Shown: positions 6,001-27,341 of the stretch, piece after piece
Layout of the letters: each line of letters begins with the position of its first letter
Numbering within the stretch: the first letter of the stretch is position 1
DNA from: Gordius albopunctatus
Taxonomy: Eukaryota
Assembly: GCA_964276515.1 (NCBI GenBank)
Contig: OZ193910.1
Location: 7,006,001 to 7,070,000 of the forward strand
Length of the DNA stretch: 64,000 bases
Reading direction: 5' to 3'
Made by a program: the position numbers and the translations under genes
The notes under the pieces: generated by a model
Databases searched by the model: none
Told to the model about the DNA's origin: nothing
The model's input: the letters and a program-made list of their open reading frames with translations, nothing else

Positions 6001-9000
6001 ATAATTTTTGATGACTGATCAAAAAAATGTTTTTCAAGCAATTCACCTCTTATACCGAAAACTTTCATGAGAGCTATATGGTTGAAAAAAAAAATTAAAA
6101 AATTTTCAGGTCGAAAAAAATATTATTTTTCAAATTCTTTCGAAAGGGAGATGAAAAAATCTTTAAAAGTTAGTAAATATTCTTAGCATTTTGTCCTTGT
6201 TAGAATCTTGATAGGAATTTATGCGTGGGGGGATGTTTTAGATTGAGAGAAATTAAAATTTTCGTGTTGCGTTTAGATTGATTCAATATCGCTTTATAAG
6301 CGTGTCTCTAGTTTTAGTGAAACAAGCTCTATGCGATCGTGATTCAGAGTTAATAATTTTTGATGACTGATCAAAAAAATGTTTTTCAAGGAATTCATCT
6401 CTTATACGGAAAACTTTCATGAGAGCTATATGGTTGAACAAAAAAAATTAAAACAATTTCGAGGTCGAAAAAAATATTATTTTTCATATTCTTTCGAAAG
6501 GGAGATGAAAAAATCTTTAAAAGTTAGTAAATATTCTTAGAATTTTGTCCTTGTTAGAATCTTGATAGGAATTTTTGCGTTGGCGATGTTTGAGATTGAG
6601 AGAAATTAAAATTTTCGTGTGGCGTTTAGATTGATTCAATATCGCTTTATAAGCGTGTCTCTAGTTTTAGTGAAACAAGCTCTATGCGATCGTGATTTAG
6701 AGTTAATAATTTTTGATGACTGATCAAAAAAATGTTTTTCAAGGAATTCACCTTTTATAACGAAAACTTTCATGAGAACTATATGGTTGAACAAAAAAAT
6801 TAAAACAATTTTGAGGTCGAAAAAAATATTATTTTTCATATTCTTTCGAAAGGGAGATGAAAAAATCTTTAAAAGTTAGTAAATATTCTTAGCATTTTGT
6901 CCTTTCTTGATAGGAATTTTTGCGTGGGGGATGTTTGAGATTGAAAGAAATTAAAATTTTCGTGTTGCGTTTATATTGTTTCAATATCCCTTTATAAGCG
7001 TGTCTCTAGTTTTAGTGAAACAAGCTCTATGCGATCGTGATTTACAGTTAATAATTTTTGATGACTGATCAAAAAAATGTTTTTCAAGGAATTCACCTCT
7101 TATACCGAAAACTTTCATGAGAGCTATATGGTTGAACAAAAAAATTGAAAAAATTTTGAGGTCGAAAAAAATATTATTTTTCAAATTCTTTCGAAAGGGA
7201 GATGAAAAAATCTTTAAAAGTTAGTAAATATTCTTAGAATTTTGTCCTTGTTAGAATCTTGATAGGAATTTTTGCGTTGGCGATGTTTGAGATTGAGAGA
7301 AATTAAAATTTTCGTGTGGCGTTTAGATTGATTCAATATCGCTTTATAAGCGTGTCTCTAGTTTTAGTGAAACAAGCTCTATGCGATCGTGATTTAGAGT
7401 TAATAATTTTTGATGACTGATCAAAAAAATGTTTTTCAAGGAATTCATCTCTTATACGGAAAACTTTAATGAGAGCTATATGGTTGAACAAAAAAATTGA
7501 AAAAATTTTGAGGTCGAAAAAAATATTTTTTTTCATATTCTTTCGTAAGGGAGATGAAAAAATCTTTAAAAGTTATTAAATATTCTTAGCATTTTGTCCT
7601 TGTTAGAATCTTGATAGGAATTTTTGCGTGGGGGGATGTTTTAGATTGAGAGAAATTAAAATTTAGGTGTTGCGTTTATATTGTTTCAATATCTCTTTAT
7701 AAGCGTGTCTCTAGTTTTAGTGAAACAAGCTCTATGCGATCGTGATTTAGAGTTAATAATTTTTGATGACTGATCAAAAAAATGTTTTTCAAGGAATTCA
7801 TCTCTTATACGGAAAACTTTCATGAGAGCTATATGGTTGAACAAAAAAAATTAAAACAATTTCGAGGTCGAAAAAAATATTATTTTTCATATTCTTTCGA
7901 AAGGGAGATGAAAAAATCTTTAAAAGTTAGTAAATATTCTTAGAATTTTGTCCTTGTTAGAATCTTGATAGGAATTTTTGCGTTGGCGATGTTTGAGATT
8001 GAGAGAAATTAAAATTTTGGTGTGGCGTTTAGATTGATTCAATATCGCTTTATAAGCGTGTCTCTAGTTTTAGTGAAACAAGCTCTATGCGATCGTGATT
8101 TAGAGTTAATAATTTTTGATGACTGATCAAAAAAATGTTTTTCAAGGAATTCATCTCTTATACGGAAAACTTTAATGATAGCTATATGGTTGAACAAAAA
8201 AATTGAAAAAATTTTGAGGTCGAAAAAAATATTTTTTTTCATATTCTTTCGTAAGGGAGATGAAAAAATCTTTAAAAGTTATTAAATATTCTTAGCATTT
8301 TGTCCTTGTTAGAATCTTGATAGGAATTTTTGCGTGGGGGGATGTTTTAGATTGAGAGAAATTAAAATTTAGGTGTTGCGTTTATATTGTTTCAATATCT
8401 CTTTATAAGCGTGTCTCTAGTTTTAGTGAAACAAGCTCTATGCGATCGTGATTTAGAGTTAATAATTTTTGATGACTGATCAAAAAAATGTTTTTCAAGG
8501 AATTCATCTCTTATACGGAAAACTTTAATGAGAGCTATATGGTTGAACAAAAAAATTGAAAAAATTTTGAGGTCGAAAAAAATATTTTTTTTCATATTCT
8601 TTCGAAAGGGAGATGAAAAAATCTTTAAAAGTTATTAAATATTCTTAGCATTTTGTCCTTGTTAGAATCTTGATAGGAATCTTTGCGTGGGGGGATGTTT
8701 TAGATTGAGAGAAATTAAAATTTAGGTGTTGCGTTTATATTGTTTCAATATCGCTTTATAAGCGTGTCTCTAGTTTTAGTGAAACAAGCTCTATGCGATC
8801 GTGATTTAGAGTTAATAATTTTTGATGACTGATCAAAAAAATGTTTTTCAAGGAATTCATCTCTTATACGGAAAACTTTAATGAGAGCTATATGGTTGAA
8901 CAAAAAAAATTAAAACAATTTCGAGGTCGAAAAAAATATTATTTTTCATATTCTTTCGAAAGGGAGATGAAAAAATCTTTAAAAGTTAGTAAATATTCTT

Positions 9001-12000
9001 AGAATTTTGTCCTTGTTTGAATCTTGATAGGAATTTTTGCGTTGGCGATGTTTGAGATTGAGAGAAATTAAAATTTTCGTGTGGCGTTTAGATTGATTCA
9101 ATATCGCTTTATAAGCGTGTCTCTAGTTTTAGTGAAATAAGCTCTATGCGATCGTGATTTAGAGTTAATAATTTTTGATGACTGATCAAAAAAATGTTTT
9201 TCAAGGAATTCATCTCTTATACGGAAAACTTTAATGATAGCTATATGGTTGAACAAAAAAATTGAAAAAATTTTGAGGTCGAAAAAAATATTTTTTTTCA
9301 TATTCTTTCGTAAGGGAGATGAAAAAATCTTTAAAAGTTATTAAATATTCTTAGCATTTTGTCCTTGTTAGAATCTTGATAGGAATTTTTGCGTGGGGGG
9401 ATGTTTTAGATTGAGAGAAATTAAAATTTAGGTGTTGCGTTTATATTGTTTCAATATCTCTTTATAAGCGTGTCTCTAGTTTTAGTGAAACAAGCTCTAT
9501 GCGATCGTGATTTAGAGTTAATAATTTTTGATGACTGATCAAAAAAATGTTTTTCAAGGAATTCATCTCTTATACGGAAAACTTTCATGAGAGCTATATG
9601 GTTGAACAAAAAAAATTAAAACAATTTCGAGGTCGAAAAAAATATTATTTTTCATATTCTTTCGAAAGGGAGATGAAAAAATCTTTAAAAGTTAGTAAAT
9701 ATTCTTAGAATTTTGTCCTTGTTAGAATCTTGATAGGAATTTTTGCGTTGGCGATGTTTGAGATTGAGAGAAATTAAAATTTTGGTGTGGCGTTTAGATT
9801 GATTCAATATCGCTTTATAAGCGTGTCTCTAGTTTTAGTGAAACAAGCTCTATGCGATCGTGATTTAGAGTTAATAATTTTTGATGACTGATCAAAAAAA
9901 TGTTTTTCAAGGAATTCATCTCTTATACGGAAAACTTTAATGATAGCTATATGGTTGAACAAAAAAATTGAAAAAATTTTGAGGTCGAAAAAAATATTTT
10001 TTTTCATATTCTTTCGTAAGGGAGATGAAAAAATCTTTAAAAGTTATTAAATATTCTTAGCATTTTGTCCTTGTTAGAATCTTGATAGGAATTTTTGCGT
10101 GGGGGGATGTTTTAGATTGAGAGAAATTAAAATTTAGGTGTTGCGTTTATATTGTTTCAATATCTCTTTATAAGCGTGTCTCTAGTTTTAGTGAAACAAG
10201 CTCTATGCGATCGTGATTTAGAGTTAATAATTTTTGATGACTGATCAAAAAAATGTTTTTCAAGGAATTCATCTCTTATACGGAAAACTTTAATGAGAGC
10301 TATATGGTTGAACAAAAAAATTGAAAAAATTTTGAGGTCGAAAAAAATATTTTTTTTCATATTCTTTCGAAAGGGAGATGAAAAAATCTTTAAAAGTTAT
10401 TAAATATTCTTAGCATTTTGTCCTTGTTAGAATCTTGATAGGAATCTTTGCGTGGGGGGATGTTTTAGATTGAGAGAAATTAAAATTTAGGTGTTGCGTT
10501 TATATTGTTTCAATATCGCTTTATAAGCGTGTCTCTAGTTTTAGTGAAACAAGCTCTATGCGATCGTGATTTAGAGTTAATAATTTTTGATGACTGATCA
10601 AAAAAATGTTTTTCAAGGAATTCATCTCTTATACGGAAAACTTTAATGAGAGCTATATGGTTGAACAAAAAAAATTAAAACAATTTCGAGGTCGAAAAAA
10701 ATATTATTTTTCATATTCTTTCGAAAGGGAGATGAAAAAATCTTTAAAAGTTAGTAAATATTCTTAGAATTTTGTCCTTGTTAGAATCTTGATAGGAATT
10801 TTTGCGTTGGCGATGTTTGAGATTGAGAGAAATTAAAATTTTCGTGTGGCGTTTAGATTGATTCAATATCGCTTTATAAGCGTGTCTCTAGTTTTAGTGA
10901 AATAAGCTCTATGCGATCGTGATTTAGAGTTAATAATTTTTGATGACTGATCAAAAAAATGTTTTTCAAGGAATTCATCTCTTATACGGAAAACTTTAAT
11001 GATAGCTATATGGTTGAACAAAAAAATTGAAAAAATTTTGAGGTCGAAAAAAATATTTTTTTTCATATTCTTTCGTAAGGGAGATGAAAAAATCTTTAAA
11101 AGTTATTAAATATTCTTAGCATTTTGTCCTTGTTAGAATCTTGATAGGAATTTTTGCGTGGGGGGATGTTTTAGATTGAGAGAAATTAAAATTTAGGTGT
11201 TGCGTTTATATTGTTTCAATATCTCTTTATAAGCGTGTCTCTAGTTTTAGTGAAACAACCTCTATGCGATCGTGATTTAGAGTTAATAATTTTTGATGAC
11301 TGATCAAAAAAATGTTTTTCAAGGAATTCATCTCTTATACGGAAAACTTTAATGAGAGCTATATGGTTGAACAAAAAAATTGAAAAAATTTTGAGGTCGA
11401 AAAAAATATTTTTTTTCATATTCTTTCGAAAGGGAGATGAAAAAATCTTTAAAAGTTATTAAATATTCTTAGCATTTTGTCCTTGTTAGAATCTTGATAG
11501 GAATCTTTGCGTGGGGGGATGTTTTAGATTGAGAGAAATTAAAATTTAGGTGTTGCGTTTATATTGTTTCAATATCGCTTTATAAGCGTGTCTCTAGTTT
11601 TAGTGAAACAAGCTCTATGCGATCGTGATTTAGAGTTAATAATTTTTGATGACTGATCAAAAAAATGTTTTTCAAGGAATTCATCTCTTATACGGAAAAC
11701 TTTAATGATAGCTATATGGTTGAACAAAAAAATTGAAAAAATTTTGAGGTCGAAAAAAATATTATTTTTCAAATTCTTTCGAAAGGGAGATGAAAAAATG
11801 TTTAAAAGTTAGTAAATATTCTTAGAATTTTGTCCTTGTTAGAATCTTGATAGGAATTTTTGCGTTGGCGATGTTTGAGATTGAGAGAAATTAAAATTTT
11901 CGTGTGGCGTTTAGATTGATTCAATATCGCTTTATAAGCGTGTCTCTAGTTTTAGTGAAACAAGCTCTATGCGATCGTGATTTAGAGTTAATAATTTTTG

Positions 12001-14746
12001 ATGACTGATCAAAAAAATGTCTTTCAAGGAATTCATCTCTTATACCGAAAACTTTCATGAGAGCTATATGGTTGAACAAAAAAAATTAAAACAATTTTGA
12101 GGTCGAAAAAAATATTATTTTTCATATTCTTTCGAAAAGGAGATGAAAAAAGAATTTTTGCGTGGGGGATGTTTTAGATTGAGAGAAATTAAAATTTAGG
12201 TGTTGAGTTTATATTGTTTCAATATCGCTTTATAAGCGTGTCTCTAGTTTTAGTGAAACAAGCTCTATGCGATCGTGATTTAGAGTTAATAATTTTTGAT
12301 GACTGATCAAAAAAATGTTTTTCAAGGAATTCACCTCTTATACCAAAAACTTTCATGAGAACTATATGGTTGAACAAAAAAATTGAAAAAATTTTGAGGT
12401 CGAAAAAAATATTATTTTTCATATTCTTTCGAAAGGGAGATGAAAAAATCTTTAAAAGTTAGTAAATATTCTTAGAATTTTGTCCTTGTTAGAATCTTGA
12501 TAGGAATTTTTGCGTTGGCGATGTTTGAGATTGAGAGAAATTAAAATTTTCGTGTGGCGTTTAGATTGATTCAATATCGCTTTATAAGCGTGTCTCTAGT
12601 TTTAGTGAAACAAGCTCTATGCGATCGTGATTTAGAGTTAATAATTTTTGATGACTGATCAAAAAAATGTTTTTCAAGGAATTCATCTCTTATACGGAAA
12701 ACTTTAATGATAGCTATATGGTTGAACAAAAAAATTGAAAAAATTTTGAGGTCGAAAAAAATATTTTTTTTCATATTCTTTCGTAAGGGAGATGAAAAAA
12801 TCTTTAAAAGTTATTAAATATTCTTAGCATTTTGTCCTTGTTAGAATCTTGATAGGAATTTTTGCGTTGGCGATGTTTGAGATTGAGAGAAATTAAAATT
12901 TTCGTGTGGCGTTTAGATTGATTCAATATCGCTTTATAAGCGTGTCTCTAGTTTTAGTGAAACAAGCTCTATGCGATCGTGATTTAGAGTTAATAATTTT
13001 TGATGACTGATCAAAAAAATGTTTTTCAAGGAATTCATCTCTTATACGGAAAACTTTAATGATAGCTATATGGTTGAACAAAAAAATTGAAAAAATTTTG
13101 AGGTCGAAAAAAATATTTTTTTTCATATTCTTTCGTAAGGGAGATGAAAAAATCTTTAAAAGTTATTAAATATTCTTAGCATTTTGTCCTTGTTAGAATC
13201 TTGATAGGAATTTTTGCGTGGGGGGATGTTTTAGATTGAGAGAAATTAAAATTTAGGTGTTGCGTTTATATTGTTTCAATATCTCTTTATAAGCGTGTCT
13301 CTAGTTTTAGTGAAACAACCTCTATGCGATCGTGATTTAGAGTTAATAATTTTTGATGACTGATCAAAAAAATGTTTTTCAAGGAATTCACCTCTTATAC
13401 CAAAAACTTTCATGAGAACTATATGGTTGAACAAAAAAATTGAAAAAATTTTGAGGTCGAAAAAAATATTATTTTTCATATTTTTTCGAAAGGGAGATGA
13501 AAAAATCTTTAAAAGTTAGTAAATATTCTTAGCATTTTGTCCTTGTTAGAATATTGATAGAAATTTATGCGTGGGGGGATGTTTTAGATTGAGAGAAATT
13601 AAAATTTTCGTGTGGCGTTTAGATTGATTCAATATCGCTTTATAAGCGTGTCTCTAGTTTTAGTGTAACAAGCTCTATGCGATCGTGATTTAGAGTTAAT
13701 AATTTTTGATGACTGATCAAAAAAATGTTTTTCAAGCAATTCACCTCTTATACCGAAAACTTTCATGAGAGCTATATGGTTGAACAAAAAAATTGAAAAA
13801 ATTTTGAGGTCGAAAAAAATATTATTTTTCAAATTCTTTCGAAAGGGAGATGAAAAAATCTTTAAAAGTTAGTAAATATTCTTAGAATTTTGTCCTTGTT
13901 AGAATATTGATAGAAATTTATGCGTGTGGGGATGTTTTAGATTGAGAGAAATTAAAATTTAGGTGTTGCGTTTATATTGTTTCAATATCGCTTTATAAGC
14001 GTGTCTCTAGTTTTAGTGAAACAAGCTCTATGCGATCGTGATTTAGAGTTAATAATTTTTGATGACTGATCAAAAAAATGTTTTTCAAGGAATTCACCTC
14101 TTATACCGAAAACTTTCATGAGAACTATATGGTTGAACAAAAAAATTAAAACAATTTTGAGGTCGAAACAAATATTATTTTTCATATTCTTTCGAAAGGG
14201 AGATGAAAAAATCTTTAAAAGTTAGTAAATATTCTTAGCATTTTGTCCTTTCTTGATAGGAATTTTTGCGTGGAGGATGTTTGAGATTGAGAGAAATTAA
14301 AATTTTCGTGTTGCGTTTAGATTGATTCAATATCGCTTTATAAGCGTGTCTCTAGTTTTAGTGAAACAAGCTCTATGCGATCGTGATTTACAGTTAATAA
14401 TTTTTGATGACTGATCAAAAAAATGTTTTTCAAGGAATTCACCTCTTATACCGAAAACTTTCATGAGAGCTATATGGTTGAACAAAAAAAATTAAAACAA
14501 TTTTGAGGTCGAAAAAAATATTATTTTTCATATTCTTTCGAAAGGGAGATGAAAAAAGAATTTTTGCGTGGGGGATGTTTGAGATTGAGAGAAATTAAAA
14601 TTTTCGTGTGGCGTTTAGATTGATTAAAAATCGCTTTATAAGCGTGTCTCTAGTTTTAGTGAAACAAGCTCTATGTGATCGTGATTTAGAGTTAATAATT
14701 TTTGATGACTGATCAAAAAAATGTTTTTCAAGGAATTCATCTCTTA
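1..14746 (+). repeat. SatA tandem satellite array, ~352-353-bp monomer (~42 copies), forward orientation
   Basis: Motifs such as GCTCTATGCGATCGTGATTTAGAG recur every 352-353 bp (ORF-track starts 2865/3218, 4222/4575/4928). Shorter monomers carry ~8-bp or ~56-bp deletions. Confidence 0.99.
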
Positions 14747-14768
14747 GGGCCCGTCTTAATATACGCTT
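14747..14768 (+). repeat. Left terminal inverted repeat
   Basis: GGGCCCGTCTTAATATACGCTT matches the reverse complement of 16750-16771 at 17/22 positions by eye. Confidence 0.88.
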
Positions 14769-14796
14769 CAACTTCAAGCGCGCCATAATTTTTTGT

Positions 14797-14817
14797 GTCT
14801 AAATATGCGATTCAACT
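14797..14817 (+). repeat. Left subterminal copy of the TIR motif
   Basis: GTCTAAATATGCGATTCAACT versus GTCTTAATATACGCTTCAACT (14753-14773), 18/21. Confidence 0.8.
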
Positions 14818-14819
14818 AA

Positions 14820-16046
14820 ATGGATGCAATATCAATATTAATTCTTTTACTAATTGAGTATGCATCAAAAAAATCTACTAGAAGAAAAAAAATATATTAT
14901 ATAAACAAAGACATGTTTTTGGGGAGTTTTCTAATATGATTAAAAATATTTTAAAGGATGATGAGTTATTTTATGATTATAAAAGGATGCAACAAAGCAC
15001 ATTTTACTATATCTTGTCTCATATTGAAGAAGATATAAATCCTTCTAATGATAAAGTTGAATGGATAAGTCCAGCTGAAAGGTTGATGGTTACTTTAAGG
15101 TATATTATAAGAATAGATTATATTTAATTTTCAATTTGGATATTTAATATTGGGGGACTGTTTCAGGCAATTAGCCTTTTCTTTTAGGATAAGTAGAAGT
15201 GCAATAGCCTATATAGTGGATGAAGTTACTGAAGCTATTGTAAAAAACTTGATGAAGATTCACATACCATACCCAATCATGAAAATTGGAAAAAAGTAGG
15301 CATTATTTATTATAAAATAAATTATTCTTTAGATAGCAAAAGATTATGAGGAGATATGGAACTTTACAAATTGTTTGGGAGCAGTTGATGGAAGGCATAT
15401 AAGGATTATCAAACCCGCAAAAGCAGGAAGCCGTTTCTATAACTACAAAGGATATCATTCCATTGTATTGATGGCTGTCTCAGATGCCAAATATAAATTT
15501 ACTTATATTGATGTAGGAGCCCTAGGGTGTCAAAGTGACGGAGGGGTTTGGAAACACTGTTCCCTGTATAAAAAGATAGAGGAAAATAGAAATTTTTTAC
15601 CACCTGATACCTATTTAACTAATACTCCTGTAAAAGTCCCATATGTATTCATAGCTGATGAAGCTTTTCAGCTATCAGAGTTTCTTATGAAACCATATCC
15701 AAGCTCTTCATTAAATGATGACAAAGTTATGTACAACAAAAGATTGGCAAGAGCCAGGAATTCTGTAGAATGTTCATTTGGAATATTGGCTAAAAAATTT
15801 GGGATTCTTGAGACCCCAATAAAAACCAAGCCTAAAAAGGCTGAAAAAATAATTCAAACAATTTGTATTTTTTATAATATTTTATTAGATAAGGAATTGC
15901 CTTCTTATGCTTATAATTTACACAATGCCCAAATTGAAAATACCCAACAGTTATTGCCTGAGAACAACCCATCTTCTCACCGTGCTCAGAATATTAGAGA
16001 ATTATTTAGTCAATATTTTAAATGTCATTCTTTACCTTGGCATTAA
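14820..16046 (+). pseudogene. Harbinger/PIF (HARBI1-like, DDE_Tnp_4 type) transposase; 3 exons (~14820-15099, 15140-15295, 15333-16046), disrupted
   Basis: Reconstructed motifs: GEF..DDELFYDYKRM, ISPAERLMVTLR|YLILGDCFRQLAFSFRISRSAI, WKK|IAKDYEEIWNFTNCLGAVDGRHI, FYNYKGYHSIVLMAVSDAKYKF, ADEAF..LMKPY, YNKRLARARNSVECSFGIL (D, D, E triad present). Introns 15100-15139 (GT..GG) and 15296-15332 (GT..AG). The reading needs +1 base near the A-run 14885-14892 and near 15272-15275. Confidence 0.9.
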
Positions 16047-16085
16047 AACCATTATAATTTTTTTAATTGTTTAATGAGTGCTCTT

Positions 16086-16157
16086 AATAAATTGTTATTC
16101 CTTTTAAGGGATGTCAAGTTTAGCTTAGAGTTGTAATAATACACATAAACTTTTATT
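16086..16157. terminator. Candidate polyadenylation signals of the two convergent genes
   Basis: AATAAA at 16086-16091 (+), downstream of the transposase stop. TTTATT at 16152-16157 (AATAAA on -), downstream of the ORF2 stop. AT-rich context makes chance plausible. Confidence 0.4.
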
Positions 16158-16203
16158 CATCATATAAAATGTATCATCAACTAATATATAAAAAATGCAA
16201 TAA

Positions 16204-16639
16204 TCAATTCTGTTTTAAATTTTCTAACAGTTGCAATATATTTAATTTGAAAAGTAACATATTGTTATCATTCAGAGATTTGAAGTCTGCTAATAGTGAA
16301 TCCAGAAAGATCTTTTCTGGATAACTAGAAATTTTGAGCTTTTCTTCTATATTTATTAACCTAACCCATCTCTTAAGATTTTCCACTTGGTTTTGCATTG
16401 TTCCACTATTAAAATTATAACATTTATTATAAAATATAACCTGGCAAGTTGCAATCATTGGCTACCAGTTGCCATGATTTGGCAACCTCTAGTTTATTAC
16501 TGTGAAGTTCATTTTCATCATCCCAAATAATGATTTGAGATTCCACACTTCTAATGAGTGTTTTTGTTTGTTCTTGCCTAATTTAAGCATTTATTATGCA
16601 TTTAATAATTATTTTATTAGCTTACTCTATATTTTGCAT
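16204..16639 (-). pseudogene. Harbinger ORF2: MADF (Myb/SANT-like) DNA-binding protein with C-terminal BESS-like motif, disrupted
   Basis: Splicing 16639-16626, 16577-16441 and 16405 onward (GT-AG introns of 48 and 35 bp) gives MQNIEQEQTKTLIRSVESQIIIWDDENELHSNKLEVAKSWQLVANDCNLPVEQCKTKWKILRDGLG* with the three MADF tryptophans and a WKxLRD motif; stop at 16358-16356. In another frame, IFLDSLLADFKSLNDNNMLLFKLNILQLL (ending at 16204) resembles a BESS motif. Confidence 0.82.
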
Positions 16640-16686
16640 CCTGCAAATCGCGAATGAAATGAAGTAACAAAGAAGCAAAAATGAAG

Positions 16687-16705
16687 TGAAGCGTATATTA
16701 AGACG
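16687..16705 (-). repeat. Right subterminal copy of the TIR motif
   Basis: TGAAGCGTATATTAAGACG is the exact reverse complement of 14752-14770 (CGTCTTAATATACGCTTCA), 19/19. Confidence 0.9.
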
Positions 16706-16749
16706 CGGCTATGTTTTAACATGTGTTCGCTTTTTTTGCTGCGAGTCAA

Positions 16750-16771
16750 AATCTTATTTTAAGACGCACCC
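16750..16771 (-). repeat. Right terminal inverted repeat
   Basis: AATCTTATTTTAAGACGCACCC; its reverse complement begins GGG..CGTCTTAA like the left end. Confidence 0.88.
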
Positions 16772-19222
16772 TAAGAGATGAATTCCTTGAAAAACATTTT
16801 TTTGATCAGTCATCAAAAATTATTAACTCTAAATCACGATCGCATAGAGCTTGTTTCACTAAAACTAGAGACACGCTTATAAAGCGATATTGAATCAATC
16901 TAAACGCCACACGAAAATTTTAATTTCTCCCAATCTCAAACATCGCCAACGCAAAAATTCCTATCAAGATTCTAACAAGGACAAAATTCTAAGAATATTT
17001 ACTAACTTTTAAAGATTTTTTCATCTCCCTTTCGAAAGAATTTGAAAAATAATATTTTTTTCGACCTCAAAATTTTTTCAATTTTTTTGTTCAACCATAT
17101 AGCTCTCATGAAAGTTTTCGGTATAAGAGGTGAATTCCTTGAAAAACATTTTTTTGATCAGTCATCAAAAATTATTAACTGTAAATCACGATCGCATAGA
17201 GCTTGTTTCACTAAAACTAGAGACACGCTTATAAAGCGATATTGAAACAATATAAACGCAACACGAAAATTTTAATTTCTCTCAATCTCAAACATCCCCC
17301 ACGCAAAAATTCCTATCAAGAAAGGACAAAATGCTAAGAATATTTACTAACTTTTAAAGATTTTTTCATCTCCCTTTCGAAAGAATATGAAAAATAATAT
17401 TTTTTTCGACCTCAAAATTGTTTTAATTTTTTTGTTCAACCATATAGTTCTCATGAAAGTTTTCGGTATAAAAGGTGAATTCCTTGAAAAACATTTTTTT
17501 GATCAGTCATCAAAAATTATTAACTCTAAATCACGATCGCATAGAGCTTGTTTCACTAAAACTAGAGACACGCTTATAAAGCGATATTGAATCAATCTAA
17601 ACGCCACACGAAAATTTTAATTTCTCTCAATCTCAAACATCGCCAACGCAAAAATTCCTATCAAGATTCTAACAAGGACAAAATTCTAAGAATATTTACT
17701 AACTTTTAAAGATTTTTTCATCTCCCTTTCGAAAGAATATGAAAAATAATATTTTTTTCGACATCGAAATTGTTTTAATTTTTTTTGTTCAACCATATAG
17801 CTCTCATGAAAGTTTTCCGTATAAGAGATGAATTCCTTGAAAAACATTTTTTTGATCAGTCATCAAAAATTATTAACTCTGAATCACGATCGCATAGAGC
17901 TTGTTTCACTAAAACTAGAGACACGCTTATAAAGCGATATTGAATCAATCTAAACGCCACACGAAAATTTTAATTTCTCTCAATCTCAAACATCGCCAAC
18001 GCAAAAATTCCTATCAAGATTCTAACAAGGACAAAATTCTAAGAATATTTACTAACTTTTAAAGATTTTTTCATCTCCCTTTCGAAAGAATATAAAAAAT
18101 AATAATTTTTTCGACCTCAAAATTTTTTCAATTTTTTTGTTCAACCATATAGCTCTCATGAAAGTTTTCGGTATAAGAGGTGAATTCCTTGAAAAACATT
18201 TTTTTGATCAGTCATCAAAAATTATTAACTCTAAATCACGATCGCATAGAGCTTGTTTCACTAAAACTAGAGACACGCTTATAAAGCGATATTGAATCAA
18301 TCAAACGCCACACGAAAATTTTAATTTCTCTCAATCTCAAACATCGCCAACGCAAAAATTCCTATCAAGATTCTAACAAGGACAAAATTCTAAGAATATT
18401 TACTAACTTTTAAAGATTTTTTCATCTCCCTTTCGAAAGAATATGAAAAATAATATTTTTTTCGACCTCGAAATTGTTTTAATTTTTTTTGTTCAACCAT
18501 ATAGTTCTCATGAAAGTTTTCGGTATAAAAGGTGAATTCCTTGAAAAACATTTTTTTGATCAGTCATCAAAAATTATTAACTCTAAATCACGATCGCATA
18601 GAGCTTGTTTCACTAAAACTAGAGACACGCTTATAAAGCGATATTGAATCAATCAAACGCCACACGAAAATTTTAATTTCTCTCAATCTCAAACATCGCC
18701 AACGCAAAAATTCCTATCAAGATTCTAACAAGGACAAAATTCTAAGAATATTTACTAACTTTTAAAGATTTTTTCATCTCCCTTTCGAAAGAATATGAAA
18801 AATAATATTTTTTTCGACCTCGAAATTGTTTTAATTTTTTTTGTTCAACCATATAGCTCTCATGAAAGTTTTCCGTATAAGAGATGAATTCCTTGAAAAA
18901 CATTTTTTTGATCAGTCATCAAAAATTATTAACTCTAAATCACGATCGCATAGAGCTTGTTTCACTAAAACTAGAGACACGCTTATAAAGAGATATTGAA
19001 ACAATATAAACGCAACACCTAAATTTTAATTTCTCTCAATCTAAAACATCCCCCCACGCAAAAATTCCTATCAAGATTCTAACAAGGACAAAATGCTAAG
19101 AATATTTAATAACTTTTAAAGATTTTTTCATCTCCCTTACGAAAGAATATGAAAAAAAATATTTTTTTCGACCTCAAAATTTTTTCAATTTTTTTGTTCA
19201 ACCATATAGCTCTCATTAAAGT
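16772..19222 (-). repeat. SatA inverted block (~7 monomers, 2451 bp)
   Basis: Sequence is the reverse complement of SatA (TAAGAGATGAATTCCTTG...). The repeat ORFs switch to the + strand here (17042, 17387). Confidence 0.98.
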
Positions 19223-22200
19223 GCTATATGGTTGAACAAAAAAAATTAAAACAATTTCGAGGTCGAAAAAAATATTATTTTTCATATTCTTTCGAAAGGG
19301 AGATGAAAAAATCTTTAAAAGTTAGTAAATATTCTTAGAATTTTGTCCTTGTTAGAATCTTGATAGGAATTTTTGCGTTGGCGATGTTTGAGATTGAGAG
19401 AAATTAAAATTTTCGTGTGGCGTTTAGATTGATTCAATATCGCTTTATAAGCGTGTCTCTAGTTTTAGTGAAACAAGCTCTATGCGATCGTGATTTAGAG
19501 TTAATAATTTTTGATGACTGATCAAAAAAATGTTTTTCAAGGAATTCACCTCTTATACCGAAAACTTTCATGAGAGCTATATGGTTGAACAAAAAAATTG
19601 AAAAAATTTTGAGGTCGAAAAAAATATTATTTTTCAAATTCTTTCGAAAGGGAGATGAAAAAATCTTTAAAAGTTAGTAAATATTCTTAGAATTTTGTCC
19701 TTGTTAGAATCTTGATAGGAATTTTTGCGTTGGCGATGTTTGAGATTGAGAGAAATTAAAATTTTCGTGTGGCGTTTAGATTGATTCAATATCGCTTTAT
19801 AAGCGTGTCTCTAGTTTTAGTGAAACAAGCTCTATGCGATCGTGATTTAGAGTTAATAATTTTTGATGACTGATCAAAAAAATGTTTTTCAAGGAATTCA
19901 TCTCTTATACGGAAAACTTTCATGAGAGCTATATGGTTGAACAAAAAAAATTAAAACAATTTCGAAATCGAAAAAAATATTATTTTTCATATTCTTTTGA
20001 AAGGGAGATGAAAAAATCTTTAAAAGATTTTAAATATTCTTAGCATTTTGTCCTTGTTAGAATCTTGATAGGAACTTTTGCGTGGGGGGATGTTTGAGAT
20101 TGAGAGAAATTAGAATTTTCGTGTTGCGTTTAGATTGTTTCAATATCGCTTTATAAGCGTGTCTCTAGTTTTAGTGAAACAAGCTCCATGCGATCGTGAT
20201 TTAGAGTTAATAATTTTTGATGACTGATCAAAAAAAATGTTTTTCAAGGAATTAACATTTTTTACCGAAAACTTTCATGAGAGCTATATGGTTGAAGAAA
20301 AAATTGAAAAAATTTAGAGGTCGAAAAAAATATTATTTTTCGTATTCTTTCGAAAGGGAGATGAAAAAATCTTTAAAAGATTTTAAATATTCTTAGCATT
20401 TTGTCCTTGTTAGAATCTTGATAGGAACTTTTGCGTGGGGGGATGTTTTAGATTGAGAGAAATTAGAATTTTCGTGTTGCGTTTAGATTGTTTCAATATC
20501 GCTTTATAAGCGTGTTTCTAGTTTTAGTGAAACAGGCTCCATGCGATCGTGATTTAGAGTTAATAATTTTTGATGACTGATCAAAAAAAATGTTTTTCAA
20601 GGAATTAACATTTTTTACCGAAAACTTTCATGAGAGCTATATGGTTGAAGAAAAAATTGAAAAAATTTAGAGGTCGAAAAAAATATTATTTTTCGTATTC
20701 TTTCGAAAGGGAGATGAAAAAATCTTTAAAAGATTTTAAATATTCTTAGCATTTTGTCCTTGTTAGAATCTTGATAGGAACTTTTGCGTGGGGGGATGTT
20801 TTAGATTGAGAGAAATTAGAATTTTCGTGTTGCGTTTAGATTGTTTCAATATCGCTTTATAAGCGTGTTTCTAGTTTTAGTGAAACAGGCTCTATGCGAT
20901 CGTGATTTAGAGTTAATAATTTTTGATGACTGATCAAAAAAATATTTTTCAAGGAATTCACCTCTTATACCGAAAACTTTCATGAGAGCTATATGGTTGA
21001 ACAAAAAAATTGAAAAAATTTTGAGGTCGAAAAAAATATTATTTTTCATATTCTTTAGAAAGGGAGATGAAAAAATCATTAAAAGATTTTAAATATTCTT
21101 AGCATTTTGTTCTTGTTAGAATCTTGATAGGAACTTTTGCGTGGGGGGATGTTTTAGATTGAGAGAAATTAGAATTTTCGTGTTGCGTTTAGATTGTTTC
21201 AATATCGCTTTATAAGCGTGTCTCTAGTTTTAGTGAAACAGGCTCTATGCGATCGTGATTCAGAGTTAATAATTTTTGATGACTGATCAAAAAAATGTTT
21301 TTAAAGGAATTCACCTCTTATACCGAAAACTTTCATGAGAGCTATATGGTTGAACAAAAAAATTGAAAAAATTTTGAGGTCGAAAAAAATATTATTTTTC
21401 ATATTCTTTCGAAAGGGATGATGAAAAAACCTTTAAAAGATAGTAAATACTCATAGAATTTTGTCCTTGTTAGAATCTTGATAGGAACTTTTGCGTGGGG
21501 TGATGTTTTAGATTGAGAGAAATTAAAATTTTCGTTTTGCGTTTAGATTGTTTCAATATCGCTTTAAAAGCGTGTCTCTAGTTTTAGTGAAACAAGCTCT
21601 ATGCGATCGTGATTTAGAGTTAATAATTTTTGATGACTGATCAAAAAAAATGTTTTTCAAGGAATTAACATTTTTTACCGAAAACTTTCATGAGAGCTAT
21701 ATGGTTGAACAAAAAAATTGAAAAAATTTCGAGGTCGAAAAAAATATTATTTTTCATATTCTTTTGAAAGGGAGATGAAAAAATCTTTAAAAGATTTTAA
21801 ATATTCTTAGCATTTTGTCCTTGTTAGAATCTTGATAGGAACTTTTGCGTGGGGAGATGTTTTAGATTGAGAGAAATTAGAATTTTCGTGTTGCGTTTAG
21901 ATTGTTTCAATATCGCTTTATAAGCGTGTCTCTAGCTTTAGTTAAACAAGCTCCATGCGATCGTGATTTAGAGTTAATAATTTTTGATGACTGATCAAAA
22001 AAAATGTTTTTCAAGGAATTAACATTTTTTACCGAAAACTTTCATGAGAGCTATATGGTTGAAGAAAAAATTGAAAAAATTTAGAGGTCGAAAAAAATAT
22101 TATTTTTCATATTCTTTCGAAAGGGAGATGAAAAAATCTTTAAAAGTTAGTAAATATTCATAGCATTTTGTCCTTGTTAGAATCTTGATAGGAACTTTTG

Positions 22201-25200
22201 CGTGGGAGGATGTTTTAGATTGAGAGAAATTAGAATTTTCGTATTGCATTTAGATTGTTTCAATATCGCTTTATAAGCGTGTTTCTAGTTTTAGTGAAAC
22301 AAGCTCTATGCGATCGTGATTCAGAGTTAATAATTTTTGATGACTGATCAAAAAAATGTTTTTAAAGGAATTCACCTCTTATACCGAAAACTTTCATGAG
22401 AGCTATATGGTTGAAGAAAAAATTGAAAAAATTTAGAGGTCGAAAAAAATATTATTTTTCGTATTCTTTCGAAAGGGAGATGAAAAAATCTTTAAAAGAT
22501 TTTAAATATTCTTAGCATTTTGTCCTTGTTAGAATCTTGATAGGAACTTTTGCGTGGGGGGATGTTTTAGATTGAGAGAAATTAGAATTTTCGTGTTGCG
22601 TTTAGATTGTTTCAATATCGCTTTATAAGCGTGTCTCTAGTTTTAGTGAAACAAGCTCCATGCGATCGTGATTTAGAGTTAATAATTTTTGATGACTGAT
22701 CAAAAAAAATGTTTTTAAAGGAATTAACATTTTTTACCGAAAACTTTCATGAGAGCTATATGGTTGAAGAAAAAATTGAAAAAATTATGAGGTCGAAAAA
22801 AATATTATTTTTCATATTCTTTTGAAAGGGAGATGAAAAAATCTTTAAAAGATTTTAAATATTCTTAGCATTTTGTCCTTGTTAGAATCTTGATAGGAAC
22901 TTTTGCGTGGGGGGATGTTTTAGATTGAGAGAAATTAGAATTTTCGTGTTGCGTTTAGATTGTTTCAATATCGCTTTATAAGCGTGTCTCTAGTTTTAGT
23001 GAAACAAGCTCCATGCGATCGTGATTTAGAGTTAATAATTTTTGATGACTGATCAAAAAAATGTTTTTAAAGGAATTCACCTCTTATACCCAAAACTTTC
23101 ATGAGAGCTATATGGTTGAACAAAAAAATTGAAAAAATTTTGAGGTCGAAAAAAATATTATTTTTCATATTCTTTCGAAAGGGATGATGAAAAAATCTTT
23201 AAAAGTTAGTAAATATTCTTAGCATTTTATCCTTGTTAGAATCTTGATAGGAATTTTTGCGTGGGGGGATGTTTAGATTGAGAGAAATTAAAATTTTCGT
23301 GTTGCGTTTAGATTGTTTCAATATCGCTTTATAAGCGTGTTTCTAGTTTTAGTGAAACAGGCTCTATGCGATCGTGATTCAGAGTTAATAATTTTTGATG
23401 ACTGATCAAAAAAATGTTTTTAAAGGAATTCACCTCTTATACCGAAAACTTTCATGAGAGCTATATGGTTGAACAAAAAAATTGAAAAAATTTTGAGGTC
23501 GAAAAAAATATTATTTTTCATATTCTTTCGAAAGGGATGATGAAAAAACCTTTAAAAGATAGTAAATACTCATAGAATTTTGTCCTTGTTAGAATCTTGA
23601 TAGGAACTTTTGCGTGGGGTGATGTTTTAGATTGAGAGAAATTAGAATTTTCGTGTTGCGTTTAGATTGTTTCAATATCGCTTTATAAGCGTGTCTCTAG
23701 TTTTAGTGAAACAAGCTCCATGCGATCGTGATTTAGAGTTAATAATTTTTGATGACTGATCAAAAAAAATGTTTTTCAAGGAATTAACATTTTTTACCGA
23801 AAACTTTCATGAGAGCTATATGGTTGAAGAAAAAATTGAAAAAATTTAGAGGTCGAAAAAAATATTATTTTTCGTATTCTTTCGAAAGGGAGATGAAAAA
23901 ATCTTTAAAAGATTTTAAATATTCTTAGCATTTTGTCCTTGTTAGAATCTTGACAGGAACTTTTGCGTGGGGGGATGTTTTAGATTGAGAGAAATTAGAA
24001 TTTTCGTGTTGCGTTTAGATTGTTTCAATATCGCTTTATAAGCGTGTCTCTAGTTTTAGTGAAACAAGCTCCATGCGATCGTGATTTAGAGTTAATAATT
24101 TTTGATGACTGATCAAAAAAAATGTTTTTCAAGGAATTAACATTTTTTACCGAAAACTTTCATGAGAGCTATATGGTTGAAGAAAAAATTGAAAAAATTA
24201 TGAGGTCGAAAAAAATATTATTTTTCATATTATTTCGAAAGGGAGATGAAAAAATCTTTAAAGGTTAGTAAATACTCTTAGAATTTTGTCCTTGTTTGAA
24301 TCTTGATAGGAACTTTTGCGTGGGGTGATGTTTTAGATTGAGAGAAATTAAAATTTTCGTGCTGCGTTTAGATTGTTTCAATATCGCTTTATAAGTGTGT
24401 CTCTAGTTTTAGTGAAACAAGCTCCATGCGATCGTGATTTAGAGTTAATAATTTTTGATGACTGATCAAAAAAAATGTTTTTAAAGGAATTAACATTTTT
24501 TACCGAAGAATTTCTTAGAGCTATATGGTTGAACAAAAAAATTGATAAAATTTTGAGGTCGAAAAAATATTATTTTTCATATTCTTTCGAAAGGGATATG
24601 AAAAAATCTTTAAAAGTTAGTAAATATTCTTAGCATTTTATCCTTGTTAGAATCTTGATAGGAATTTTTGCGTGGGGGGATGTTTTAGATTGAGAGAAAT
24701 TAAAATTTAGGTGTTGCGTTTATATTGTTTCAATATCGCTTTATAAGCGTGTCTCTAGTTTTAGTGAAACAAGCTCTATGCGATCGTGATTTAGAGTTAA
24801 TAATTTTTGATGACTGATCAAAAAAAATGTTTTTCAAGGAATTAACATTTTTTACCGAAAACTTTCATGAGAGCTATATGGTTGAAGAAAAAATTGAAAA
24901 AATTTAGAGGTCGAAAAAAATATTATTTTTCGTATTCTTTCGAAAGGGAGATGAAAAAATCTTTAAAAGATTTTAAATATTCTTAGCATTTTGTCCTTGT
25001 TAGAATCTTGACAGGAACTTTTGCGTGGGGGGATGTTTTAGATTGAGAGAAATTAGAATTTTCGTGTTGCGTTTAGATTGTTTCAATATCGCTTTATAAG
25101 CGTGTCTCTAGTTTTAGTGAAACAAGCTCCATGCGATCGTGATTTAGAGTTAATAATTTTTGATGACTGATCAAAAAAAATGTTTTTCAAGGAATTAACA

Positions 25201-27141
25201 TTTTTTACCGAAAACTTTCATGAGAGCTATATGGTTGAAGAAAAAATTGAAAAAATTATGAGGTCGAAAAAAATATTATTTTTCATATTATTTCGAAAGG
25301 GAGATGAAAAAATCTTTAAAGGTTAGTAAATACTCTTAGAATTTTGTCCTTGTTTGAATCTTGATAGGAACTTTTGCGTGGGGTGATGTTTTAGATTGAG
25401 AGAAATTAAAATTTTCGTGCTGCGTTTAGATTGTTTCAATATCGCTTTATAAGTGTGTCTCTAGTTTTAGTGAAACAAGCTCCATGCGATCGTGATTTAG
25501 AGTTAATAATTTTTGATGACTGATCAAAAAAAATGTTTTTAAAGGAATTAACATTTTTTACCGAAGAATTTCTTAGAGCTATATGGTTGAACAAAAAAAT
25601 TGATAAAATTTTGAGGTCGAAAAAATATTATTTTTCATATTCTTTCGAAAGGGATATGAAAAAATCTTTAAAAGTTAGTAAATATTCTTAGCATTTTATC
25701 CTTGTTAGAATCTTGATAGGAATTTTTGCGTGGGGGGATGTTTTAGATTGAGAGAAATTAAAATTTAGGTGTTGCGTTTATATTGTTTCAATATCGCTTT
25801 ATAAGCGTGTCTCTAGTTTTAGTGAAACAAGCTCTATGCGATCGTGATTTAGAGTTAATAATTTTTGATGACTGATCAAAAAAATGTTTTTAAAGGAATT
25901 CACCTCTTATACCGAAAACTTTCATGAGAGCTATATGGTTGAACAAAAAAAATTAAAACAATTTTGAGGTCGAAAAAAATATTATTTTTCATATTCTTTC
26001 GAAAGGGAGATGAAAAAAGAATTTTTGCGTGGGGGATGTTTGAGATTGAGAGAAATTAAAATTTTCGTGTTGCGTTTAGATTGTTTCAATATCGCTTTAT
26101 AAGCGTGTTTCTAGTTTTAGTGAAACAGGCTCTATGCGATCGTGATTTAGAGTTAATAATTTTTGATGACTGATCAAAAAAAATGTTTTTCAAGGAATTA
26201 ACATTTTTTACCGAAGAATTTCTTAGAGCTATATGGTTGAACAAAAAAATTGATAAAATTTTGAGGTCGAAAAAATATTGATTTTCATATTCTTTCGAAA
26301 GGGAGATGAAAAAATCTTTAAAAGTTAGTAAATATTCTTAGAATTTTGTCCTTGTTTGAATCTTGATAGGAACTTTTGCGTGGGGTGATGTTTTAGATTG
26401 AGAGAAATTAAAATTTTCGTGCTGCGTTTAGATTGTTTCAATATCGCTTTATAAGTGTGTCTCTAGTTTTAGTGAAACAAGATCCATGCGATCGTGATTT
26501 AGAGTTAATAATTTTTGATGACTGATCAAAAAAAATGTTTTTAAAGGAATTAACATTTTTTACCGAAGAATTTCTTAGAGCTATATGGTTGAACAAAAAA
26601 ATTGATAAAATTTTGAGGTCGAAAAAATATTGATTTTCATATTCTTTCGAAAGGGAGATGAAAAAATCTTTAAAAGTTAGTAAATATTCTTAGCATTTTG
26701 TCCTTGTTAGAATCTTGATAGGAATTTATGCGTGGGAGGATGTTTTAGATTGAGAGAAATTAAAATTTAGGTGTTGCGTTTATATTGTTTCAATATCGCT
26801 TTATAAGCGTGTCTCTAGTTTTTGTGAAACAAGCTCTATGCGATCGTGATTTAGAGTTAATAATTTTTGATGACTGATCAAAAAAATGTTTTTAAAGGAA
26901 TTCACCTCTTATACCGAAAACTTTCATGAGAGCTATATGGTTGAACAAAAAAATTGAAAAAATTTTGAGGTCGAAAAAAATATTATTTTTCATATTCTTT
27001 CGAAAGGGATGATGAAAAAACCTTTAAAAGATAGTAAATACTCATAGAATTTTGTCCTTGTTAGAATCTTGATAGGAACTTTTGCGTGGGGTGATGTTTT
27101 AGATTGAGAGAAATTAAAATTTTCGTGTTGCGTTTAGATTG
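19223..27141 (+). repeat. SatA forward array (~22 monomers), mostly a distinct variant subfamily after ~19960
   Basis: Orientation reverts at GCTATATGGTTGAAC (19223). Diagnostic variants GGAACTTTTG, AATTAGAATT, AAAGATTTTAAA and GGAATTAACATTTTTTACCG appear. Confidence 0.98.
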
Positions 27142-27341
27142 NNNNNNNNNNNNNNNNNNNNNNNNNNNNNNNNNNNNNNNNNNNNNNNNNNNNNNNNNNN
27201 NNNNNNNNNNNNNNNNNNNNNNNNNNNNNNNNNNNNNNNNNNNNNNNNNNNNNNNNNNNNNNNNNNNNNNNNNNNNNNNNNNNNNNNNNNNNNNNNNNNN
27301 NNNNNNNNNNNNNNNNNNNNNNNNNNNNNNNNNNNNNNNNN
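27142..27341. other. Assembly gap (200 N)
   Basis: Run of exactly 200 N, probably a fixed-size scaffold spacer. Confidence 0.99.

What the first reader, a model, noticed from the sequence alone, without database searches (positions are those of the whole stretch)
16772..19235. Transposon-bounded 7-monomer satellite inversion whose far breakpoint maps to the same target site
Seen: the inversion ends at ...CTCTCATTAAAGT|GCTATATGG. Relative to the target TTA, the inverted arm lacks only the next 8 nt (TACGGAAA) and the forward arm lacks the next ~20 nt. Both breakpoints therefore lie within ~25 bp of one monomer site. Inference, model A: one-ended transposition, in which the right end re-inserted at the equivalent TTA seven monomers away and the freed flanks were rejoined with small deletions. 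Model B: recombination between two oppositely oriented copies, followed by excision of the second. Either gives a mechanism for strand switches in satellite arrays.
Basis: partly seen in the sequence, partly recalled or inferred. Interest (0 to 1): 0.85.

Follow-up and report, generated by a model that had tools for sequence, protein, structure and literature searches.

The report
Harbinger transposon flips seven satellite repeats
In this assembly a block of seven 353-base satellite repeats runs backwards next to a decayed Harbinger DNA transposon, and both ends of the block map to the transposon's insertion site in the repeat, so the transposon likely caused the flip by a known type of rearrangement, which would explain how some satellite arrays switch strand without leaving a transposon at the switch.

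Summary
A 2,025-bp PIF/Harbinger element (14747-16771) sits in a 353-bp satellite. Both of its ends abut the same half of one target site (CATCTC-TTA | element | TAA-GAGATG). Seven reversed monomers follow (16772-19222). The far junction joins the two other halves, lacking 8 and 20 nt after the triplet, with no microhomology and no element remnant. The block mirrors neither flank, so it is not a fold-back. The matching far breakpoint shows that the two junctions are reciprocal, but does not pick a mechanism. The re-inversion test did not favour the restored order: the block's own two ends rebuild a native junction best (at least 676 nt each way, against 172 and 164). An inverted insertion of an element-plus-seven-monomer unit is therefore a real rival. 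Best guess (0.38): local inversion through a two-copy intermediate, then imprecise loss of the second copy. Inverted insertion 0.22; one-ended transfer 0.22. No genome or raw reads were available, so the junctions are unconfirmed and recurrence untested. Transposon-made inversions, including by this superfamily, are known; the satellite setting is the new part.

The parts
1..14746 (+). 353-bp satellite (SatA), left array; ends at the target triplet TTA (14744-14746). Last monomer (14449-14746) is a 298-bp mosaic with 3 private substitutions at 14626, 14629, 14676
14747..16771 (+). PIF/Harbinger DNA transposon, 2,025 bp, decayed copy; only copy in the window
14747..14759 (+). left terminal inverted repeat GGGCCCGTCTTAA
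   Evidence: family left end confirmed by loose ends
16759..16771 (-). right terminal inverted repeat GGGTGCGTCTTAA (11 of 13 match to left)
   Evidence: X8 contig 16598-16772 has 0 differences and ends one base past it
16682..16705 (-). subterminal inverted copy of 14752-14776 (96% over 25 columns)
15117..15299 (+). transposase piece with HTH_Tnp_4 match (E 4.6e-4, below curated cut-off); frameshifted near 15268 relative to family contigs
15333..16046 (+). transposase catalytic reading frame, DDE_Tnp_4 (PF13359) E 7.1e-31, profile 1-158 of 158
16204..16461 (-). second gene, BESS motif (PF02944) E 2.3e-5
16427..16582 (-). second gene, MADF match (PF10545) E 4.8e-4, 20.9 bits against a cut-off of 22
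16772..19222 (-). seven reversed SatA monomers (I7 next to the element, starting with TAA; I1 at the far end, lacking its first 8 nt)
19211..19222 (.). 12-nt asymmetric spacer at the far fold-back-like junction (19222|19223); no element sequence, no microhomology
19223..27141 (+). SatA right array, first monomer lacking 20 nt; first ~2 monomers are of the left/block variant family, the rest of another family; ends at a 200-N gap

Best explanation
The seven reversed monomers lie between a Harbinger element and an element-free junction that both map to one TTA site of the monomer, and they are likely a local inversion that passed through a state with an element copy at each end, the second copy having likely been cut out afterwards with imprecise repair. 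Shown: the four ends, the element's identity, its true termini and the small deletions. Inferred: (1) an element sat at the TTA in one monomer; (2) a second, oppositely oriented copy came to lie at the same TTA seven monomers away with the segment between them flipped, either by recombination between two opposite copies or in one hybrid-element insertion; (3) this left one copy between two left halves (TTA...TAA, the survivor) and one between two right halves (TAA...TTA); (4) family transposase acting in trans excised the second, and end joining of mismatched, mutually inverted ends removed both triplets plus 8 and 20 nt.
For: Both element ends are family termini on TWA: in run X8, 16 listed contigs continue into unrelated flanks at the left end, 9 sharing TTA and 7 with a consensus giving TAA. 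The survivor's TTA/TAA pair is the exchanged-duplication pattern expected of such inversions (PMC2775673). The far junction holds exactly the two complementary halves (chance 0.0035). The block is not a mirror of either flank. All 7 block monomers are within 0-3 differences of a left-array monomer; the first two right-flank monomers are 1 difference from block monomers, against 10-24 for the other 20, so the block is local in kind. The order 'D-type then B-type start' needed at the restored right junction also occurs at I4-I5 and 19556-19908. Each step has precedent: recombination between inverted Ds copies followed by excision of one (line D5, PMC3239180); a 120-kb inversion flanked by mPing (PMC5724284); frequent excision of closely linked mPings, 7 of 12 high-excision loci (10.1101/2020.08.24.265538).
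Against: No trace of a second copy: TIR-like motifs occur only at 14747 and 16771. The restored junctions fit native order worse than the swapped pairing, by 10 differences over two monomers each side; true native pairs did that badly in 9 of 741 cases, and 0 of 160 when 5-9 monomers apart (pairs are not independent, and the mosaic left flank biases the test). In yeast, mPing with TAA/TTA ends was repaired fairly precisely (PMC4561436), unlike the 11- and 23-nt losses here. The model needs a second hit at the same one of 19 TWA sites per monomer, and a better C-TWA-G site exists at monomer position 132. The chimera signal expected from recombination is weak (no family difference in the last 260 bp; likelihood ratio about 2). 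No read support.
Confidence: 0.38

Rival explanations
1. Inverted insertion, not inversion: the element first sat in reverse orientation between I7-type and I1-type monomers; that element-plus-7-monomer unit was tandemly duplicated or circularised by array recombination, moved as an element-block-element composite (or recombined into another copy), and the second copy was then excised.
For: The block's own ends rebuild a native junction: allowing 3 differences, the match runs 983 and 692 nt upstream and 676 nt downstream at 1929|2281 and 7103|7455, against 172 and 164 nt for the re-inversion junctions. A fit that good occurs for 16 of 41, 15 of 39 and 12 of 38 true junctions but only 2 of 34, 3 of 32 and 3 of 31 end pairs taken 7 monomers apart, about 3-7 to 1. 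Tandem copying of elements inside satellite arrays is documented (10.64898/2026.09.17.752431 section 9), as are macro- or megatransposons (PMC9910405; mPing with 8.1 kb).
Against: Needs more steps and still needs the same-site hit. The left flank also has a 345-bp type monomer at position -2 (4 differences from I6), so both left halves may simply share repeat phase. The remaining junction (left flank to 19223) fits native order no better (152 nt). Block and right flank share local monomer orders.
Confidence: 0.22
2. One-ended or unconcerted strand transfer: one element end was cut and joined to the same strand at the equivalent TTA seven monomers away (or the unit came from a circle), and host end joining sealed the two freed right halves. 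No second copy ever existed.
For: Fewest steps; explains the absence of any second copy. Only 2 of 19 TWA sites have C at -1, and 5 of 9 listed TTA-type family flanks have that C (p 0.006, on pre-selected rows), so a half-site preference would make the same-site hit likelier. The left flank carries 3 private changes within 121 nt of the element and the right one none there, as if the left junction were older. mPing rearrangements with only one terminus involved are reported.
Against: DDE transposases normally act on paired ends (established knowledge, recalled). The one-terminus mPing cases seen were deletions, not inversions. Neither right half shows private changes, so the age argument is weak.
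Confidence: 0.22
3. Assembly artefact: reads from two loci joined through the element, or a chimeric read.
For: No read support could be obtained. False inversions in satellite assemblies are documented (PMC5411766). The contig ends 7.9 kb to the right.
Against: Fold-back chimeras give mirror copies; here mirror partners differ by 4-20 events per monomer at the element and 8-27 at the far junction, and the arms are identical for only 70 and 22 nt. A mis-join through the element would leave the far junction's position as a 0.35-2% coincidence. The structure spans 4.5 kb.
Confidence: 0.08
4. Transposase-independent rearrangement: replication template switching or double breaks at the element's ends or in the satellite, repaired in inverted orientation, including an inverted duplication whose flanks were later reshuffled.
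For: Template switching was the authors' model for the mPing-flanked inversion. The far junction folds as a strong hairpin (-30.6 kcal/mol, z -11.8), and closely spaced inverted repeats are unstable (PMC7999016).
Against: The right junction is base-exact at the TIR with an intact TAA. No microhomology at the far junction. The best match for the block as 7 consecutive monomers elsewhere in the window has 65 differences, so it is not a copy of a flank.
Confidence: 0.1

Closest known systems
Inversion by recombination between inverted Ds copies with later excision of one (rice OsRLG5 line D5; PMC3239180, passages read)
   Same: kb-scale segment flipped, one element left at one junction and an excision scar at the other
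   Different: hAT element in a transgenic gene context; both starting copies were known; no satellite and no shared target position
Galileo-generated inversions in Drosophila buzzatii (PMC2775673, passages read)
   Same: exchanged target duplications; recombination and hybrid-element insertion give nearly the same product
   Different: both copies persist and are shown to be chimeric; here one copy, a 3-bp target with little information and a weak chimera signal
mPing (PIF/Harbinger superfamily) rearrangements (PMC5724284; 10.1101/2020.08.24.265538; passages read)
   Same: same superfamily; inversion with elements at breakpoints, megatransposon, one-terminus events
   Different: rice MITE outside satellite arrays; elements at both inversion ends
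Element-free strand switches in Tribolium satellites (10.1101/2024.12.02.626372; PMC13081366; passages read)
   Same: truncated monomer joined to a reversed truncated monomer, no foreign sequence, 9-27-nt loop in T. freemani (12 nt here)
   Different: those junction types are amplified across chromosomes; the passages read tie none of them to a transposon; here one event with a transposon partner
Cichlid centromere centroids (PMC13652916, passages read)
   Same: satellite blocks in alternating orientation around sequences resembling DNA transposons
   Different: about 15-kb paired elements about 200 kb apart, conserved and proposed functional; here 2 kb, single, no evidence of function

Membership tests
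PIF/Harbinger DNA transposon | DDE_Tnp_4 transposase | tested here: met
   PF13359 E 7.1e-31, full profile
PIF/Harbinger DNA transposon | second gene with Myb/SANT-like (MADF) domain | tested here: met
   MADF E 4.8e-4 (20.9 bits, just under cut-off 22) plus BESS E 2.3e-5 on the minus strand; feature as stated in PMC13668399
PIF/Harbinger DNA transposon | terminal inverted repeats | tested here: met
   13 bp, 11 of 13 matching; ends shared with family contigs
PIF/Harbinger DNA transposon | 3-bp TWA target | tested here: met
   family flanks end TTA or TAA; this copy has the non-matching pair TTA/TAA
autonomous Harbinger copy | intact transposase | tested here: not met
   frameshift near 15268 against family contigs; 13 of 15 codon differences examined change the residue
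transposon-mediated inversion by ectopic recombination | two copies in opposite orientation, one at each breakpoint | tested here: not met
   one copy only; no TIR remnant at 19222|19223. A lost second copy is inferred
transposon-mediated inversion by ectopic recombination | exchanged target duplications | tested here: inconclusive
   TTA/TAA with two left halves fits, but both triplets are gone at the far junction and rivals predict the same
transposon-mediated inversion by ectopic recombination | chimeric element copy | tested here: inconclusive
   0 of 30 copy-specific differences in the last 260 bp (p 0.016), but a 293-bp gap also lies inside; likelihood ratio about 2
balanced inversion | re-inversion restores native monomer order | tested here: inconclusive
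   alleles compatible at both restored junctions, but the swapped pairing fits better
balanced inversion | uninverted ancestral allele exists | not testable with these tools
   no genome or second haplotype held
fold-back inverted duplication | arms are mirror copies | tested here: not met
   arms identical for 70 and 22 nt only
macrotransposon insertion | element copies at both ends of the moved block | tested here: not met
   one copy; loss of the second is inferred
macrotransposon insertion | block ends derive from one donor junction | tested here: inconclusive
   favoured about 3-7 to 1, with the biases noted

The most novel reading that the evidence does not exclude
This Harbinger family repeatedly generates strand switches in the satellite at one monomer position, moving or flipping whole blocks of monomers, and element-free fold-back junctions with short loops, of the kind seen in beetle centromeric satellites, are its excision scars.
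Probability: 0.2. Interest if true: 0.75.

Novelty: new variant of a known kind. Interest (0 to 1): 0.5.

Why it matters
Strand switches are common in some satellite arrays (over 200 breakpoints in certain human arrays; most T. freemani major-satellite arrays have reversed subarrays), and the junctions often carry no foreign sequence, so their origin is hard to read. Here an element-free junction has a reciprocal partner that still holds the transposon. If the pattern recurs, it gives a direct test: element-free switches should cluster just downstream of the element's target site in the monomer. As one locus in an assembly without read support it is a clear example of a known class of rearrangement, not yet a general mechanism.

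Tried and rejected
Whole-genome mapping of switches: no genome is held. Public runs: 8 listed, all as contigs, best share of words 0.54; 4 of 8 were laid on 14300-19700 and 2 of 8 on 14727-16791. No shown joint or piece bridged a junction, but the lists were cut (354 joints and 145,411 pieces not shown), 0 of 449 and 0 of 132 contigs ran over the ends, and contigs show presence only; the runs may be of other individuals or species. Exact search for the element's left end in metagenome contigs: 0 matches. Earlier findings of this scan: nothing in 3 look-ups. Fold-back duplication: rejected. In-place flip between two tandem-duplicated direct copies: rejected unless flanks were replaced later, because neither flank pair is a long copy. 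Dating by the element's 1.5% decay: not usable, since the reference contigs may be of another species. The idea that the 8/20-nt losses arose later by trimming of a perfect palindrome is recalled; the passages read in PMC7999016 support only general instability. No protein homologue, structure or RNA-family search was run; they do not bear on the question.
Full report
Layout. The window holds a 353-bp satellite (SatA) on the plus strand from 1 to 14746, a unique 2,025-bp segment, seven SatA monomers on the minus strand (16772-19222), SatA on the plus strand to 27141, a 200-N gap (27142-27341) and a second, 345-bp satellite to the end. No whole genome is held. The organism is not known; an AT-rich animal genome is my inference from the satellite and the MADF-BESS gene.

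The element. Of 17 listed frames, 5 were scanned against Pfam and 4 matched: DDE_Tnp_4 (E 7.1e-31), HTH_Tnp_4, and on the other strand MADF and BESS. The ends are 13-bp inverted repeats with 2 mismatches. These are the features given for PIF/Harbinger in PMC13668399. Contigs of two public runs show that the ends are real family ends. In run X8 the listed loose ends at the left terminus come from 5 contigs sharing CTTA, 4 sharing TTA and 7 whose consensus gives TAA; one contig matches 16598-16772 with no difference and stops there (55 further rows not shown). The window copy differs from the majority letters at 26 substitutions and 4 indels by my count, leaving out 7 positions that split between two family variants (1.5%). 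One indel shifts the transposase frame near 15268, and 13 of 15 codon differences examined change the residue. It is a decayed copy and would need transposase in trans.

The junctions. Call the sequence up to and including the TTA the left half and the sequence after it the right half. The element has a left half on both sides: CATCTC-TTA before it and TAA-GAGATG after it. The far junction has two right halves, one starting at monomer position 9 and one at 21, with no shared bases and no element remnant. It folds as a hairpin around a 12-nt spacer, which follows trivially from the inverted arms. Independent placement of both ends within 20 nt has probability 0.0035, so the two junctions belong to one reciprocal event. 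This does not choose among mechanisms.

Not a fold-back. Mirror partners differ by 4-20 events per monomer about the element and 8-27 about the far junction; arms are identical for only 70 and 22 nt; the best 7-monomer match elsewhere in the window has 65 differences. The block is nevertheless local in kind: each monomer is within 0-3 differences of a left-array monomer, and the first two right-flank monomers are 1 difference from block monomers while the other 20 are 10-24 away.

The re-inversion test. All four ends are allele-compatible. Scored against native junctions, the best fit is between the block's own two ends: 1 difference over one monomer each side and 6 over two, against 7 and 19 (left flank to I1) and 7 and 27 (I7 to right flank). 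The swapped pairing beats the re-inversion pairing by 2, 10 and 17 differences at one, two and three monomers each side. For true native pairs in the left array this happened in 39 of 820, 9 of 741 and 8 of 666 cases. A fit as good as I7|I1 occurs in 16 of 41, 15 of 39 and 12 of 38 true junctions but 2 of 34, 3 of 32 and 3 of 31 end pairs 7 apart. This counts against a simple inversion. Three things weaken it. The pairs are not independent. The left flank is a mosaic (a 345-bp type, then a 298-bp monomer whose right part matches I7, with 3 private changes) that may descend from the same repeat phase as I6-I7. And the order needed at the restored right junction occurs twice nearby. I put balanced inversion at roughly 55-60% and inverted insertion at about 30%; these are judgements, not computed values.

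Mechanism. A concerted two-ended transposition puts an element end at both new junctions (established for Ac/Ds and P; outline in PMC2775673). Only one junction has an element, so either a second copy was lost or only one end moved. Two-copy routes use documented steps: recombination between inverted Ds copies with later excision of one, hybrid-element insertion, ready excision of linked mPings. The lost copy would have had TAA and TTA flanks. In yeast, non-matching ends reduced mPing repair, but this particular pair was repaired fairly precisely, which fits poorly; that assay scores in-frame revertants and would miss many deletions. One-ended transfer is shorter and fits a half-site preference for C-TWA (2 of 19 sites; 5 of 9 listed flanks), but unpaired-end transfer is the less usual reaction (recalled). 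Every live model needs a second hit at the same monomer position, and this is unexplained: the site matches C-TWA-G on one side only, while position 132 matches on both.

Independent support. None. Public runs are contigs only and no shown record bridged a junction. I put artefact at 8% because the anatomy is not what chimeric reads or a mis-join would give.

Literature. Nine searches returned, judged by listings and the passages read, no report of a Harbinger at a satellite strand switch with a reciprocal element-free junction; the library lacks most subscription papers. Seen: PMC4561436, parts 1-3 of 5 of the text; 10.64898/2026.09.17.752431, passages and section 9; passages only of 10.1101/2024.12.02.626372 (19), PMC3239180, PMC9910405, 10.1101/2021.07.12.452052 (37), PMC5411766, PMC13668399, 10.1101/2020.08.24.265538 (46), PMC5724284, PMC2775673, PMC7999016, PMC13652916, PMC13081366. 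No supplements were read; the junction sequences of line D5 and the Tribolium inversion alignments are in supplements and could bear on the comparison.

Verdict. The feature is real in the assembly and very likely transposon-made. It is a new variant of a known kind of rearrangement. The path is unresolved, and generality is untested. Interest 0.5.

Noticed in passing
window 27346-64000: Second satellite, 345 bp, 106 copies, no strand switch (0 of 107 hits on the minus strand); about 69% identical over 201 columns to the reverse complement of SatA, so the two are related and face opposite ways across the 200-N gap, whose orientation is unverified.
   Followed up: partly
window 19908-20262: Boundary inside one monomer between two SatA variant families; the right family often has AACATTTTT in place of the CACCTCTTA target site.
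   Followed up: partly
window 4046, 5402, 12043, 14449, 25910 and 1584, 6758, 14104, 17124-17468: Recurrent monomers with a shared 55-bp deletion (298-299 bp) or 7-bp deletion (345 bp) mark an irregular higher-order repeat with many mosaic monomers.
   Followed up: partly
window 14626, 14629, 14676: Three private substitutions within 121 nt of the element's left end, against 7 in the other 41 left-array monomers (p 0.0007); cause unknown.
   Followed up: partly
window 16696-16736: Contigs of runs X1, X7 and X8 match only this subterminal stretch and continue into other sequence on both sides, suggesting a related element family sharing a subterminal motif; higher depth at both element ends and a joint skipping 1,790 bp suggest internally deleted derivatives.
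   Followed up: no
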